Below, in pieces: positions 21,001-24,000 of a DNA stretch of 64,000 nt. Source of the stretch: Escherichia coli (GTDB lineage: Bacteria; Pseudomonadota; Gammaproteobacteria; Enterobacterales; Enterobacteriaceae); assembly GCF_044324875.1 (NCBI RefSeq), contig NZ_CP172185.1; one strand, given 5' to 3'. The position numbers are program-made. The first letter of the stretch is position 1. Each line of letters starts with the position of its first letter.

Positions 21001-24000
21001 CGTCACATTCCCCGTATCAGTTTCTCTTACCGTAAGAACGGCTCTGGCTGGCGATAAAACTAACCCGGTCGGGCATTCCCACAGTCTTTAGAGAAAATGT
21101 AATTTACCCCCTGAAACGCGGGCTGTTCCCCCGTCACCTGCGCGCGAAAAACTCACCGTTTTTTGTGCACGCACGAAATCGCCCTCCGGGCGCGCCAGTA
21201 CTGGGCCGGATGGGCAAAAAGTTACTCTAAAAAATTGTGCAAATTTGTGCACTTTTGTGCAGATGGACAATAGCGTCAAAAAGAGTGCTTTTGAGAGATT
21301 TTTTATGGCAACTGCGCCGCGTGTATTACGTTTTTTACCATCCCCGCCGCGCATGTACATACTTCATTTTTCTGCCAGACAACAGGGCAACTCCCCGTGA
21401 CTGACAGCCCCAAAAAATCAATGATTGATGTTGCATTTTTGTTAAAGGTTAGACCAGTTGTTTTGGGGCTCTGCCTCATAATCCGGTGGGGGGTGCGCAA
21501 ACCGGTTACAACGGTTACAACACTCAAAAACACCACTTAACAGCATGATTTTAATGGATATTGTTTGTAACCGCTTTGCGGTTACACTGCGGTTACAACG
21601 GTTACAGGTTTCAAAAAGTACTTTATTATCAATCAATTAAAAACTTAACCTGTAACCGCCTGTAACCTAACAAAACGGTTACATGTAACCGCGTTGTAAC
21701 CGCTTTTGTAACTCATCGGACCAGTTATAATATATTGATATATAATACAAAAATAAGTAATTTTAAATTTGTAACCGTTGTAACCGCTTTGCGCACCCCC
21801 CCCCAAACTTTAGCGCGACCCTTTAAAATGTTAATTAAACTCACTTACTCTGTATCTCTCTAGTTAACTCTCTGTTATTGAAATGTATCTCTCCACTGTT
21901 TCACTCTTTCTGATAATCAGGGGAAGCAAAAAATTGATGGCGGCACTACTGCAATATGGCCACCATTGCATTGCTGTTACCGTTGGTTCTGGCCAACAAA
22001 AAAGGTCAGCGGGAAACTGACCTCTTTTGCTGTGAATGCGGCGTTCTGCGGGTTACTCTGCTGGCTCTTTTTCTTCGGTGATCACTATGTTGGCTACCGG
22101 GTTAAATCTCATGGCATCTGCCAGATAATCCGGTGCAAAATGTGCGTATGCCATAGTCTGCTGAATTGTCGCATGCCCAAGGATTTTTTGTAGCGCAAGA
22201 ATGTTGCCACCGTTCATCACAAAGTGACTGGCGAATGTATGCCGCAATACATGCGCAGCCTGCCCCCTCGGTAAATCGGGTTTTATTTTTTTTAATGCCC
22301 GGCAAAACTCTCTGTACTTCACATCAAACAGTCGCCCGGTTTCTTTTGTTTTTACGGCATCGCATATTTCCTGCGACACAGGCACCGTTCTTTTTCTACC
22401 GTTTTTGGTTTCCAGAAACGTTATTCTGTTATGAACTATTTGCTCTCCATGCAATCTGCTGGCCTCACTCCAGCGGGCTCCGGTACAAAGACACAAGAGC
22501 GCAACCCTTCGTTGATCTCCATTCAGCCCGTCAAGCAACAATGTGACCTCGTTTTTTGATAAAAAGGCCATTTCCCGCTGCTTTACATAAAGAACAGGAA
22601 TACCACGAACCGGATGCTCTGCATCCCACAAACCGATCTTTTTCAGGGCTGTAAACATCCCCGATAATCTGTTCATGTATCTGTTTGCTGAGGACGGCTT
22701 TAATCCTTCCGCAATTTTCTGCGATCGCCATGCAATGATTTTTAATTTGTTGAGTTCTGCCGCAAACATGTCAGCTCCAAGCTCATTAATAATTTTGCCA
22801 AGTTGCTGTTTATCCGTGTTTGCCTTTCGCCTGTGCTGACCGTGATAGACCCACCACAATTCCAGTAAATCGCTAAGCGTTCTCCGGTCGCGATAGCCCT
22901 GTATAAACTCGCGCTTTTCGGCGTTCGCTATGATGTACCGTTCAGTTGCTGTAGCTATCGATTTTTTGTCAAATATTCTTCTGATGCGCTTCCCTTTACG
23001 TCCGCATGGCCTGATATCGAGCAGCCACCGCCCATCATGCATCTTTCTGATCGGCATGTTTAACTCCCCTCCTTGTAACTGAATATCCGGCATTTCAGTA
23101 CTTCCGGCTCTCTGGCCTCGGCGACCCCTCTTCCGGCGTTTGCCTGTCTGGAGACCTCACTACGAATGGTTTTGCGGCCTGTCAAAGGTCGGGAACGTCC
23201 GGCTGCGAGCAACTCAATCATTTCGCGGTCAGTTCGGATCTCCACGCGGTGAATAGCGGCAGCCTGTGCCAGTTGCGGAATACTGATAGCAATCCCCTCG
23301 CGGCATCCCTTGCCGTAGTGGTTTACACCGTATTTTGTTATGCCGTCCAGATAGTCGAACGCCTCCCAGAACGCTATTACTTCCGGCAAGTCATCCGTTA
23401 CCGCTTTAACTTGTTCCGCTGCCATTCGTTCCAGTTCCTGGCATGTGGCATTAAGCCATTCATCCGGGATATCAATAACGCATTTCAGCGCCCTGACCAG
23501 CGCAATAAGTTGCGCGTGATTTTTGGCAATACGGGGATGGAGAATATTTTCGCAACCGCAAAGGCGGGTCGTTTCAGGCTCTGAGAGCGCCAGAAACATT
23601 TCCATAATTGCCCGTTCACGGCTGACTGCCCGATGAATAAACCCTGACACCTTCTCAACGGGGTAGAGTTCCAGTCGTCTCGCCGCCAGGCGGGTATCAG
23701 GTGAATGGCGTTTTTTATCGGTGTATATGCGTATCAGGCGCTCAATAATTGCAAGTGAGGCGTTTACCCTCGCATTCTGTGCAATCACGATAGCGCCCTT
23801 AAAATCCGGGTCATAGGTGTTGTTATTGTTGGTCTTAACGCCACGAACGCCGATACCGCCGCCGTTATAGAGGCTTTTCAGGTTATCGAAGTCAAACGCA
23901 CCTCTTTTTTGCGCATTGCCTCCCCGGTCTGCTTCAATCAGAACAACAGGTAATCCGGCGACCTGTCCAAAGGTGCGCTTCCAGCCCGCCTCTGATCCTT

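What the first reader, a model, noticed from the sequence alone, without database searches (positions are those of the whole stretch)
22053..23057. Second, P2-Int-like tyrosine recombinase inside an island that already has a P4-type integrase
Two different integrase types in one 15-kb element suggests a composite or nested element, or a recombinase recruited for another role (inversion, resolution). Its start is coupled to the primase stop.
Basis: partly seen in the sequence, partly recalled or inferred. Interest (0 to 1): 0.45.

Follow-up and report, generated by a model that had tools for sequence, protein, structure and literature searches.

The report
Helper-type integrase inside a phage satellite
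A small E. coli phage satellite carries, besides the integrase that inserts it at a tRNA gene, a second intact integrase of the kind used by its likely P2-like helper phages; this gene is a conserved core part of the satellite family, has no attachment site of its own, and probably acts on the helper's DNA.

Summary
Window 22053-23057 (-) encodes a 334-aa P2-family integrase with all catalytic residues. Its ATG lies 2 nt after the primase stop, inside a 15.3-kb argW island (12.7 kb without an IS21-family insertion) that also has a P4-type integrase.

It is not a nested element. The primase-integrase pair occurs in all 64 E. coli genomes that hold most of this primase-integrase stretch. These elements sit at two chromosomal sites, each with its own P4-type integrase, AlpA-type excisionase and arm repeats. 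Salmonella P4-like satellites with an unrelated replicase also carry an internal P2-type integrase next to the origin.

The gene is under purifying selection (dN/dS 0.03-0.28). Its central ~800 nt exists as at least four alleles only about 50-55% identical to one another. Three were traced to relatives among P2-like phages or prophages (82%, 85% and, in Salmonella, 93% protein identity). The gene ends and the flanking DNA stay satellite-specific.

No matching attachment core or full arm set was found in any satellite, and nothing else co-varies with the allele.

Best reading (about 0.42): a helper-type integrase acting in trans on helper attachment sites. Inversion of the 21485-21805 repeats is not supported; they are origin iterons. 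I found no description of this in the searchable literature.

The parts
22053..23057 (-). P2-family (Peduoviridae-type) tyrosine integrase, 334 aa, allele 'A'. This is the subject of the finding.
   Evidence: Pfam PF24624 + PF00589. PDB 5c6k P2 integrase at E 5e-80, with the alignment showing TGARW, TK, HxLRH, GH and YAH motifs. 82% identity to phage Chuche integrase. dN/dS 0.03-0.28 between satellite copies of the same allele.
23060..25729 (-). Toprim primase / replication initiator, 889 aa. Its stop codon lies 2 nt before the integrase ATG.
   Evidence: Pfam Toprim_2/Toprim_3 and phrog_1139 over its full length. 41-51% identity to primases of Peduoviridae phages phiCTX and ESSI2_ev239. Sequence at the junction read directly.
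21996..22023 (-). Intrinsic terminator-like hairpin (7-bp stem, 7-nt loop, T6) directly after the integrase stop. It marks the end of the early operon.
   Evidence: Sequence AGGTCAGTTTCCCGCTGACCTTTTTTG on the - strand. The palindrome is listed. Invariant in five satellites.
21806..22052 (.). Roughly 250-bp non-coding spacer between the integrase and the origin. It is about 90% conserved whatever the integrase allele and has no homology to phage attP.
   Evidence: Alignments A1 and A5.
21485..21805 (.). Replication origin. GGTTACA iterons in both orientations surround an A+T-rich centre, bounded by the inverted repeat GGGGGGGTGCGCAAA.
   Evidence: Sequence. The iteron type co-varies with the primase C-terminal part, not with the integrase allele. 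The Salmonella relative has analogous iteron arrays between its replicase and its integrase.
21100..21300 (.). P2-family cos (packaging) region.
   Evidence: Aligns at about 80% with phage Chuche DNA next to its portal gene. The 21000-21400 stretch is probably why the query 21000-26000 matched 1133 E. coli genomes while 21400-25753 matched only 69; this is an inference.
26951..27038 (-). C4-type antisense immunity RNA (the P4 CI / P1 C4 class), at the head of the early operon.
   Evidence: Rfam RF01695, 73.3 bits, above the gathering score of 45.
27064..27145 (-). isrK-like RNA / C4 target region in the leader of the early operon.
   Evidence: Rfam RF01394, 50.6 bits (gathering score 50). The overlapping c4-a1b1 match is below threshold.
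26726..27253 (-). Icd-like protein, the first ORF of the early operon.
   Evidence: RefSeq name of the identical gene in L001 and L003. PHROG repressor-type hits.
27807..28028 (-). AlpA-type excisionase/regulator that belongs with the terminal integrase.
   Evidence: Pfam PF05930, E 5.5e-17.
28639..29901 (-). P4-type terminal integrase. This is the enzyme that accounts for insertion at argW.
   Evidence: Pfam Arm-DNA-bind_3 + Phage_int_M + Phage_integrase. Adjacent to tRNA-Arg. The left end of the island carries arm-like repeats specific to this integrase, and these differ in elements that have the other terminal integrase.
28571..28589 (+). Tandem pair matching the P2-type integrase arm-site consensus (TGTGGACA on the - strand, twice, 11-bp spacing). 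It lies 50 bp beyond the P4-type integrase stop and overlaps a weak hairpin plus T-run.
   Evidence: Consensus tgTGGaCa taken from PMC3448106. Part of a 49-bp block that is 100% conserved among argW modules only 82-92% identical overall. Absent from hpt/gcd-type and Salmonella elements.
30080..30154 (-). tRNA-Arg(CCT) argW, the attachment site of the island (right junction).
   Evidence: ARAGORN; Rfam tRNA.
14746..14759 (+). Left junction: partial repeat of the tRNA 3' end.
   Evidence: Sequences.
18048..18230 (-). Ogr/Delta-type zinc-finger late activator.
   Evidence: Pfam PF04606, E 2.3e-11.
16889..17599 (-). 236-aa coiled-coil protein, a candidate scaffold or size-determination factor.
   Evidence: Only a weak tropomyosin-like hit. 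Its position upstream of the capsid gene is conserved.
15618..16889 (-). Satellite-encoded P2-family major capsid protein (423 aa as annotated in RefSeq).
   Evidence: Pfam PF05125, E 1.5e-73; phrog_70. NCBIfam TIGR01551 scores below its cut-off.
14982..15574 (+). MazE/MazF-type toxin-antitoxin pair at the left end of the island.
   Evidence: RefSeq names of identical genes.
18345..20763 (-). IS21-family insertion (istA, istB) between Delta and the cos region. Specific to this copy.
   Evidence: ORFs. Absent from NZ_CP033635 and all other copies.
58757..58776 (+). Unoccupied attB of Chuche-type P2-like phages at the 5' end of pdxB. It is the 20-bp core shared with the Chuche attP.

Best explanation
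The gene is a catalytically competent integrase of the P2 (Peduoviridae) type. It has become a fixed core gene of a small family of P4-like satellites in E. coli and Salmonella.

Expression (inferred). It is the last cistron of the early/replication operon, which begins with a C4-type immunity RNA and an Icd-like gene. It would therefore be made only when the satellite is derepressed: just after entry, or when a helper activates it.

What it does not do (shown). It does not insert the satellite. That is done by interchangeable terminal modules made of a P4-type integrase, an AlpA-type excisionase and their own arm repeats.

Proposed mechanism (inferred). The satellite holds no cognate core site and no full set of arm sites. 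The part of the protein that reads the core is swapped between alleles, and the alleles whose origin could be traced match integrases of particular resident P2-like phages. The substrates are therefore most likely the helper phage's own attachment sites: attL/attR of a resident P2-like prophage, or attP x attB of an incoming one.

Most plausible use (inferred; rests on my own knowledge of P2 genetics). In P2, int is transcribed from Pc together with the repressor gene, and Cox shuts Pc off. A derepressed P2 prophage therefore has Cox but little Int and excises poorly. A satellite that supplies Int in trans would let the helper excise and amplify as a template for late genes. The satellite's own capsid protein and cos site would then direct packaging to itself. 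The opposite use, keeping or putting the helper in the chromosome so that it cannot be packaged, is equally compatible with the sequence data.
For: Intact enzyme:
- Domains match, and the sequence aligns to the P2 integrase structure sequence with R195, K218, H269, R272, H295 and Y304 invariant in seven satellite and phage sequences.
- dN/dS is 0.03-0.28 between satellite copies of the same allele and 0.09 against phage 569R5.

Core gene:
- The primase-integrase pair underlies all 64 E. coli matches that cover at least 80% of the query.
- It is present with either terminal integrase and with either capsid module.
- Salmonella satellites with a D5_N/Pox_D5 replicase also have an internal P2-type integrase next to the origin.

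Not the inserting enzyme:
- The same allele (99% identical) is found at argW and at hpt/gcd.
- The island ends carry repeats specific to the terminal integrase.

No own site:
- The DNA downstream of the gene is unrelated to phage attP.
- The 20-bp Chuche core is absent from the island at up to 3 mismatches.
- No 14-mer or longer is shared between helper att regions and the satellites.

Allele swap:
- Flanks are 83-95% identical while the central ~800 nt are only 33-63% identical between alleles.
- Alleles assort independently of terminal integrase, capsid type and origin type.

Matching to helpers:
- Allele A is 82% identical to the Chuche integrase.
- Allele B is 85% identical to the 569R5/P88-type integrase, with stretches of 94-98% nucleotide identity.
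- The Salmonella satellite integrase P0020 is 93% identical over 323 aa to the integrase of a pdxB-integrated P2-like prophage; they differ in the C-terminal tail.

Co-residence:
- 8 of 21 allele-B satellite genomes hold a second B-type int, against about 6% of all genomes.
- In ETEC1732 that second copy is the integrase of a P2-like prophage at dmsA/serS.

Shared packaging signal: the satellite cos region aligns with phage Chuche.

Precedent: the PICI EcCIMP1 carries a helper-like excisionase that supports excision of the helper, not of the satellite (PMC11773190).
Against: - No experiment bears on this, and nothing shows that the protein binds or recombines helper sites.
- In E. coli the satellite alleles are 82-85% identical to the nearest phage integrases, not identical, so the same core specificity is assumed rather than shown.
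- Most satellite-bearing genomes lack a prophage with the matching integrase (13 of 21 for allele B). The window's own pdxB attB is empty.
- The allele mosaic could arise neutrally by gene conversion between homologous int genes wherever satellite and phage share a cell. Periodic overwriting from functional phage genes could partly mimic purifying selection.
- P4 itself exploits P2 without helper excision, so excision of the helper is not a known requirement for this kind of piracy.
- The co-occurrence counts are not corrected for clonal relatedness. My rough lineage count is 5 of 13.
Confidence: 0.42

Rival explanations
1. Relic, or back-up, of an older integration module. The ancestor of this satellite clade used the P2-type integrase with an attP beside the origin, much as P4 has alpha - crr - attP - int. 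A P4-type integrase/AlpA module was acquired later and took over. The old gene persists either because it is still used at an attachment site I did not recognise, or because gene conversion from phage int genes keeps it intact.
For: The gene always follows the replicase and origin. In Salmonella relatives it is followed by a cargo hotspot and then the Delta/late genes, roughly the place of int in the circular P4 map. The P4 layout is taken from the 2026 bioRxiv text and from my own knowledge. The roughly 250-bp stretch just downstream of the gene, where P2-like phages keep attP, is strongly conserved.
Against: No arm-type repeats or helper cores occur downstream of the gene. In the roughly 13 contexts inspected, and in the other matches listed, the gene always lies beside the primase; no copy was seen with this gene at an element end. 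The conserved downstream DNA does not change when the core-reading part of the protein is replaced. Within-satellite comparisons show purifying selection. The satellite-specific 5' and 3' parts, which conversion cannot repair, are intact in all copies in two genera.
Confidence: 0.2
2. Multimer resolution or monomerisation. The recombinase acts at a site near the origin and cos to turn replication or recombination multimers into monomeric circles, the form that P2-type terminases package and that a plasmid state needs.
For: The gene is always adjacent to the origin and, in E. coli, to cos. It is co-transcribed with the replication protein. Toxin-antitoxin genes suggest a plasmid-like lifestyle. 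That P2/P4 packaging needs monomeric circles is my own knowledge.
Against: The protein keeps the N-terminal arm-binding domain typical of integrases, which simple resolvases of the Xer/Cre/ResD kind lack. The core-binding and catalytic part is replaced by versions only 50-55% identical while the neighbouring non-coding DNA and the origin type do not co-vary. No inverted-repeat core was identified.
Confidence: 0.15
3. Non-catalytic or regulatory DNA binding, or interference. The protein binds P2-type arm sites through its conserved N-terminal domain. The targets could be in the satellite (the tandem site at 28571-28589 behind the terminal integrase gene) or in the helper. The effect could be to regulate satellite excision, or to poison helper integrase complexes through mixed tetramers that carry the satellite-specific C-terminal tail.
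For: A perfect P2-type arm pair lies within a 49-bp block that is 100% conserved in all argW modules. The first ~20 residues and the C-terminal tail (DYLADAMRFNPVA..KEPAE) are conserved across the E. coli alleles, while phage tails differ.
Against: All catalytic residues are conserved under purifying selection, which a mere binding protein would not need. The arm pair is absent from hpt/gcd-type and Salmonella elements that keep the gene. The pair also overlaps a hairpin plus T-run that may simply terminate the P4-type int transcript.
Confidence: 0.1
4. Composite or nested element: a second mobile element, or a fragment of a P2-like prophage, inserted into a P4-type island; or an invertase that flips the 21485-21805 segment.
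For: There are two integrase types in one island. The repeat block is bounded by an inverted repeat of about 15-33 bp next to a recombinase.
Against: There are no second junctions. The gene is translationally coupled to the primase and conserved in position in all copies. In real Peduoviridae with the related primase, int lies upstream and divergent, beside the repressor/Cox switch. The repeat block has one orientation in all aligned copies and behaves as an iteron origin.
Confidence: 0.03

Closest known systems
Integrases of P2-like phages (Peduoviridae): P2 Int (PDB 5c6k/5dor), HP1 Int, and most closely Escherichia phage Chuche Int and the vB_EcoM-569R5/P88-type Int
   Same: Same three-part protein: an N-terminal arm-binding segment, the Int_N core-binding domain and a catalytic domain with the R-K-H-R-H-Y residues. 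Identity is 51% to typical Peduovirus integrases and 82-85% (93% in Salmonella) to particular phage lineages.
   Different: It is not next to a repressor/Cox switch, not at an element end, and has no attP beside it. It is fused into a primase operon of a satellite and has a satellite-specific C-terminal tail in place of the tail that overlaps the P arm in phages.
Satellite phage P4 and P4-like elements
   Same: A tRNA-adjacent P4-type integrase, an AlpA/Vis-type excisionase, C4/CI-type RNA immunity, a toprim primase-type initiator with an iteron origin, an Ogr/Delta activator, a P2-type cos region and a size near 12 kb.
   Different: No Psu, Sid or Epsilon was detected. The E. coli replicase does not hit Pox_D5. 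The element has its own P2-family capsid gene, and early and late genes run in the same direction. It also has a second, helper-type integrase. Published P4-like detection pipelines assume a single integrase and keep only one (PMC8628076, PMC10085698).
EcCIMP1 (an E. coli PICI) alpA_1
   Same: A satellite carries a site-specific-recombination protein similar to its helper's. That protein is dispensable for satellite excision but supports excision of the helper prophage (PMC11773190).
   Different: There the protein is an excisionase (directionality factor), not the recombinase. In that study the PICI integrase did not complement the helper integrase.
PLE satellites of Vibrio cholerae and helper ICP1
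   Same: Site-specific recombination of satellite and helper is coupled across the two genomes. My own knowledge: the PLE integrase uses the ICP1 protein PexA as its directionality factor. The related paper PMC9638900 is listed.
   Different: The direction of borrowing is opposite: there the satellite recombinase depends on a helper factor. Those enzymes are serine recombinases and the helper is virulent.

Membership tests
P2-type (Peduoviridae) heterobivalent tyrosine integrase | Domain architecture: Int_N (PF24624) core-binding domain plus the Phage_integrase (PF00589) catalytic domain, about 330 aa | tested here: met
   Both domains are above the Pfam gathering scores (85.2 and 71.6 bits).
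P2-type (Peduoviridae) heterobivalent tyrosine integrase | Sequence relationship to experimentally characterised members (P2 Int, HP1 Int) | tested here: met
   5c6k at E 5.1e-80 over residues 49-322; 1aih at E 4.3e-48.
P2-type (Peduoviridae) heterobivalent tyrosine integrase | Catalytic residues R, K, H-x-x-R, H, Y | tested here: met
   R195, K218, H269, R272, H295 and Y304 are invariant in alignment A4 and aligned to the same motifs of P2 Int. The assignment to catalytic roles is by motif, not by experiment.
P2-type (Peduoviridae) heterobivalent tyrosine integrase | Cognate attP next to the gene: two pairs of arm repeats (tgTGGaCa) flanking a core identical to a host attB | tested here: not met
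   The downstream DNA is unrelated to phage attP. No core was found. The only arm pair is 5.5 kb away, occurs only in argW-type elements, and has no convincing partner pair or core.
P2-type (Peduoviridae) heterobivalent tyrosine integrase | Genomic setting: at the prophage end, beside the C repressor / Cox switch | tested here: not met
   Phages Chuche, 569R5 and ESSI2_ev239 and the prophages L004, L099 and L102 show that setting. The satellite gene follows a primase.
P2-type (Peduoviridae) heterobivalent tyrosine integrase | Recombination activity on att sites | not testable with these tools
   Needs in vivo or in vitro recombination assays.
P4-like satellite (markers used by Moura de Sousa & Rocha: Int, Psu, Delta, Sid, AlpA, Epsilon, Alpha) | Integrase, AlpA and Delta | tested here: met
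   PF00589/PF13356, PF05930 and PF04606. The marker list is from PMC8628076.
P4-like satellite (markers used by Moura de Sousa & Rocha: Int, Psu, Delta, Sid, AlpA, Epsilon, Alpha) | Alpha (Pox_D5 PF03288), Psu (PF07455), Epsilon (PF10554), Sid | tested here: not met
   The E. coli primase hits Toprim_2/3 and only a sub-threshold DUF5906. No Psu or Epsilon hit was obtained for the ORFs I scanned (18 of the island's and its relatives' ORFs; not every small ORF was tested). Sid has no Pfam model and was not tested. Salmonella relatives do hit D5_N/Pox_D5.
P4-like satellite (markers used by Moura de Sousa & Rocha: Int, Psu, Delta, Sid, AlpA, Epsilon, Alpha) | RNA-based immunity of the CI/C4 type, and a P2-type cos | tested here: met
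   RF01695 at 73.3 bits. The cos region aligns with a Peduovirus. The literal P2 19-mer recalled from memory was not found.
Invertible-segment switch (Fim-type tyrosine invertase) | A segment bounded by inverted repeats that is found in both orientations | tested here: not met
   Inverted repeats exist, but all aligned copies have one orientation and the segment is an iteron origin. Read-level heterogeneity could not be examined.
Xer/Cre/ResD-type multimer resolution system | A simple recombinase without an arm-binding domain, plus a cis core site that is specific for it | tested here: inconclusive
   An arm-binding N-terminus is present. No core site was identified and no DNA co-varies with the allele. 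Activity was not testable.

The most novel reading that the evidence does not exclude
A satellite keeps, as a core early gene, a working copy of its helper's integrase and uses it in trans to control whether the helper prophage is in or out of the chromosome. The specificity-determining centre of the gene is renewed by gene conversion from whichever P2-like phage shares the cell, so the satellite tracks its helpers. As far as I could find, this would be the first case of a satellite-encoded recombinase whose substrate is the helper genome rather than the satellite.
Probability: 0.3. Interest if true: 0.78.

Novelty: new variant of a known kind. Interest (0 to 1): 0.58.

Why it matters
Phage satellites are assumed to carry one integrase, for their own insertion. 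The published detection pipelines discard any extra integrase. Here a second integrase is fixed in a satellite family, is of the helper's type, and lacks a site of its own.

If it acts on the helper, it adds a new layer to satellite-helper conflict: control of the helper's excision or integration. It would also offer an answer to an old peculiarity of P2-like prophages, which excise poorly after derepression because integrase is limiting.

The proposal is directly testable with simple genetics, using candidate helpers named here (Chuche-type phages at pdxB, 569R5/P88-type phages at dmsA/serS).

The same loci also describe a satellite lineage that encodes its own P2-family capsid protein. That is of interest for how capsid size is redirected without Sid or Psu.

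Tried and rejected
1. Chuche-type attP in the island. The 20-bp core and the 180-bp attP gave no match beyond chance. The same negative result held for 569R5-type and Salmonella pdxB-type junctions against their satellites.

2. A full attP around the arm pair at 28571-28589. Two further single matches in the same orientation (28825 GGTGGACA, 28877 TGTGGTCA) lie inside the P4-type int coding sequence. They are 52 bp apart instead of 11, and one encodes the conserved C-G-H-G-F-R motif. I treated them as probably chance.

3. A '186-type' arm pair (GCCACTT twice) at 28213-28235. This is a window-specific 11-bp duplication, single-copy in other elements. Rejected.

4. Inheritance of the primase-int arrangement from phiCTX/Evevirus-type phages. 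In those phages int is not downstream of the primase.

5. Inversion of the origin segment. No copy is in the opposite orientation.

6. The genome-contig scan with the primase returned only two loci, so it was of little use. The viral-contig scan with a primase alignment was more useful.

7. The literal P2 cos 19-mer recalled from memory was absent. The cos region was identified instead by alignment to phage Chuche.

8. Search for a Cox- or Epsilon-like protein among the small ORFs I scanned. No Pfam or PHROG hits.

9. Type-specific co-occurrence for allele A. The query still cross-hits other P2-type int genes (20% background), so only a general enrichment of P2-type int genes could be shown: 15 of 28.

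10. Literature searches for a description of this family, or of a second integrase in satellites, found none. The library lacks most subscription journals.
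Full report
**1. What is at the coordinates**

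An ORF runs 22053..23093 on the minus strand. The start used by RefSeq for identical elements, and the one that aligns with the N-termini of P2-type integrases, is the ATG at 23057, giving 334 aa.

The upstream gene (23060-25729, 889 aa) is a toprim primase. It ends in TAA at 23060-23062. Two bases separate that stop from the ATG, and AAGGAGG lies just upstream.

The protein has Pfam Int_N and Phage_integrase domains. It matches the sequence of the P2 integrase crystal structure 5c6k at E 5e-80 and HP1 integrase at 4e-48. The canonical R, K, H-x-x-R, H and Y positions are all kept. A tblastn search against 50,697 phage records gave about 51% identity to many Peduovirus integrases and 82% to Escherichia phage Chuche, an ordinary P2-like phage. 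The label 'P2-Int-like' is correct.

**2. The island**

tRNA-Arg(CCT) lies at 30080-30154, between yfdC/mlaA and the island. This is the E. coli argW locus. A P4-type integrase (28639-29901) sits beside it. The tRNA 3' end is partly repeated at 14746-14759, so the island spans about 15.3 kb.

Read along the minus strand, the island contains:
- the P4-type integrase;
- AlpA;
- a C4-type antisense RNA and an isrK-like leader (Rfam);
- an Icd-like gene and four small ORFs;
- the primase;
- the P2-type integrase, followed by a terminator hairpin;
- a 250-bp spacer;
- an iteron origin (21485-21805, GGTTACA units);
- a cos region that aligns with phage Chuche DNA beside its portal gene;
- an IS21-family insertion specific to this copy;
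- an Ogr/Delta gene;
- a coiled-coil protein;
- a P2-family major capsid gene;
- a MazEF pair.

The element in NZ_CP033635 is 99.4% identical over the stretch compared (window 21000-26000) and lacks the IS. The element is thus a P4-like satellite in its immunity, terminal integrase/AlpA, Delta and cos. It lacks detectable Psu, Sid and Epsilon and has its own capsid gene.

**3. Is the second integrase an accident of this copy?**

No. A search with 21400-25753 found 69 E. coli genomes out of 5426. All 64 matches covering at least 80% of the query have 'toprim protein | phage integrase' beneath them.

The elements occupy two chromosomal sites, argW and the hpt/gcd interval. The hpt/gcd elements have a different terminal integrase, also of the P4 type, with its own AlpA-type excisionase.

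The distal ends of the two kinds of element carry different direct repeats, matching their integrase. Homology between them begins only about 75 bp before mazE. The terminal modules are therefore the working integration systems.

The same internal integrase allele (99% identical) occurs with both terminal modules.

In 80 viral contigs that carry related primases, only the four with primases at least 89% identical have an integrase directly downstream. In true Peduoviridae with primases about 50% identical, int lies upstream and divergent, in the usual place beside the repressor/Cox switch.

Salmonella satellites extend the pattern. They have a P4-type integrase, AlpA, early ORFs, a D5_N/Pox_D5 replicase, iteron arrays, a P2-type integrase, cargo genes, and then Delta and further genes. 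The internal integrase is thus conserved across two genera and two unrelated replicases. It is always next to the replicase and origin, never at the element end.

**4. Alleles**

The E. coli satellites carry at least four alleles:
- A: the window, L001;
- B: L005, L007, L015;
- C: L006, L093;
- D: L096, from a metagenome.

The three alleles compared directly (A, B, C) are 51-54% identical to one another in protein, and D is 55% identical to A.

A sliding-window comparison shows 83-95% nucleotide identity in the primase 3' end, the first 60-90 nt of the gene, its last ~150 nt and the downstream DNA. The central ~800 nt show only 33-63%. The centre of allele A is 66-81% identical to the Chuche int. 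The centre of allele B is 71-98% identical to the int of phage vB_EcoM-569R5. In both cases the flanks are unrelated to the phages.

In Salmonella the satellite integrase P0020 is 93% identical over 323 residues to the integrase of a P2-like prophage inserted at pdxB. The two diverge only in the C-terminal tail.

Alleles assort independently of terminal integrase, capsid module and origin type.

According to PMC3448106, the middle (core-binding) domain of P2-type integrases is the variable part that sets integration specificity, and the arm sites have the consensus tgTGGaCa. The swap therefore replaces the part of the protein that reads the core.

**5. Selection**

Between satellite copies of the same allele, dN/dS is 0.03-0.28; for example dN 0.006 and dS 0.101 for the window against L094. 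Between allele B and phage 569R5 it is 0.09. No copy was annotated as a pseudogene in the records inspected.

**6. Search for its site**

The DNA downstream of the gene, where P2-like phages keep attP, has no similarity to the Chuche attP. It is about 90% conserved among satellites with different alleles.

I defined the Chuche core by comparing the phage attP with a prophage junction and with the empty site. It is the 20-bp AAAATCCTTGTTGATGAAAA at the 5' end of pdxB. It is present and unoccupied in the window at 58757-58776 and absent from the island. The att regions of 569R5 and of the Salmonella prophage share nothing longer than 12-13 nt with their satellites.

A whole-element comparison of an allele-A and an allele-B argW satellite shows divergence in four places: the integrase centre, the origin, parts of the primase (which go with the origin type), and one small ORF. 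L007 combines allele B with the A-type origin. No cis element therefore tracks the allele.

**7. The arm-like site**

One exact pair matching the P2 arm consensus, with the same 11-bp spacing and flanking bases as the Chuche P arm, lies at 28571-28589, 50 bp beyond the stop of the P4-type integrase gene. It sits in a 49-bp block that is perfectly conserved among argW modules otherwise 82-92% identical. It is present in every argW-type element seen.

It is absent from hpt/gcd-type and Salmonella elements. It also overlaps a short hairpin followed by a T-run that could terminate the int transcript. I regard it as a probable binding site for a P2-type integrase, either the satellite's or the helper's. 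Its role is unknown and it cannot be the general target of the enzyme.

**8. Association with P2-like phages**

- The satellite shares its cos region with a Peduovirus, has an Ogr/Delta activator and a P2-family capsid protein.
- Eight of 21 genomes with an allele-B satellite contain a second B-type int, against about 6% of all genomes.
- In ETEC1732 this second copy belongs to a P2-like prophage at dmsA/serS. Its int is 99.7% identical to that of 569R5 and 80% identical (84% in protein) to the satellite's, with a 135-nt stretch at 95-97%.
- Fifteen of 28 allele-A genomes hold another P2-type int against a 20% background, but that test is not type-specific.
- These counts are not corrected for clonality.

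**9. Interpretation**

Shown:
- the enzyme is intact, conserved and under selection;
- it is not the enzyme responsible for the observed insertions;
- it lacks a recognisable site of its own;
- its specificity-determining part is exchanged with integrases of P2-like phages.

Inferred: it works on the helper's attachment sites. From my own knowledge of P2, int is transcribed from Pc with the repressor gene and Cox represses Pc, so derepressed prophages excise poorly unless Int is supplied in trans. That Cox acts as repressor of Pc, as excision factor and as activator of P4 is documented in PMC3936717.

A satellite that makes helper-type Int from its early operon could release a resident helper. 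With the opposite outcome, it could lock the helper in the chromosome. A precedent for a satellite protein serving helper excision exists in EcCIMP1 (PMC11773190).

I put this reading at about 0.42. The rivals are:
- a relic or back-up integration module with an unrecognised site (0.20);
- multimer resolution near the origin and cos (0.15);
- a binding, regulatory or interference role (0.10);
- a nested element or invertase (0.03).

**10. Novelty**

The two systematic studies of P4-like satellites handle multiple integrases by keeping only one (PMC8628076, PMC10085698). Full-text searches found no description of a conserved internal helper-type integrase, or of this capsid-encoding lineage. 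The library is incomplete, so this is absence of evidence only. I class the finding as a new variant of a known kind: a P4-like satellite with an added helper-type recombinase of unknown, probably trans-acting, function.

Noticed in passing
window 28571-28589 (also L003 19570-19587, L006 9450-9468, L007 9531-9549, L096 2938-2956): A tandem pair matching the P2-type integrase arm-site consensus (TGTGGACA twice, 11-bp spacing) lies just beyond the stop of the P4-type integrase gene. It sits in a 49-bp block that is 100% conserved among argW modules and overlaps a hairpin plus T-run. It is present only in argW-type elements.
   Followed up: partly
window 15618-17599; L005 17286-19224; L006 6674-8612: The satellites encode their own P2-family major capsid protein, preceded by a coiled-coil or 291-aa protein. 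Two very different module types exist (423 aa and 350 aa; about 24% identical over the part that aligns), placed at different positions in the element (left end, or between AlpA and Icd). No Sid or Psu homologue was detected. This suggests capsid redirection by a satellite capsid variant.
   Followed up: partly
window 18231-21087: An IS21-family element (istA 19117-20763, istB 18345-19343) is inserted between the cos region and the Delta/late genes. It is absent from all other copies seen and may cut the late genes off from upstream transcription, so this particular copy may be defective.
   Followed up: partly
window 21485-21805 and primase 23060-24000; L005, L015: The origin iteron sequence (GGTTACA versus GGTCACA and other spacings) changes together with parts of the primase, chiefly its C-terminal third. 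This is a separate specificity swap, independent of the integrase allele.
   Followed up: partly
window 26951-27145: A C4 antisense RNA (73 bits) and an isrK-like RNA lie at the head of the early operon, upstream of an Icd-like gene. This is the P1/P4 style of RNA immunity.
   Followed up: no
window 58757-58776: An unoccupied attB for Chuche-type P2-like phages lies at the 5' end of pdxB, about 29 kb from the satellite. The 20-bp core was defined here from the phage attP, a prophage junction and the empty site. A Salmonella P2-like prophage lies beside pdxB in the same way.
   Followed up: yes
window 28213-28235: An 11-bp tandem duplication (CCACTTTAAG-type) in the AlpA-integrase intergenic region, specific to this lineage. 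It mimics a pair of 186-type arm sites but is single-copy in other elements.
   Followed up: yes
window 28167-28200 (+ strand): A conserved TTGACA-type promoter-like sequence points rightwards, antisense to the P4-type integrase gene. It might give an antisense transcript ending at the hairpin that holds the arm-like pair.
   Followed up: no
window 14914-14955: Two TGTAGACA-containing repeats 34 bp apart lie just upstream of mazE and are conserved in elements at both chromosomal sites. They are probably the antitoxin operator.
   Followed up: no
window 5817-13730 and 2000-5000: Directly left of the island lies a 2637-aa ORF annotated in an identical genome as the phase-variable autotransporter adhesin UpaE. 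It is preceded by a low-G+C stretch (31-38%).
   Followed up: no
L100 14943-18990 (Salmonella): A second island with its own P4-type integrase and AlpA lies immediately after the satellite, in a tandem arrangement of integrase-bearing elements.
   Followed up: no
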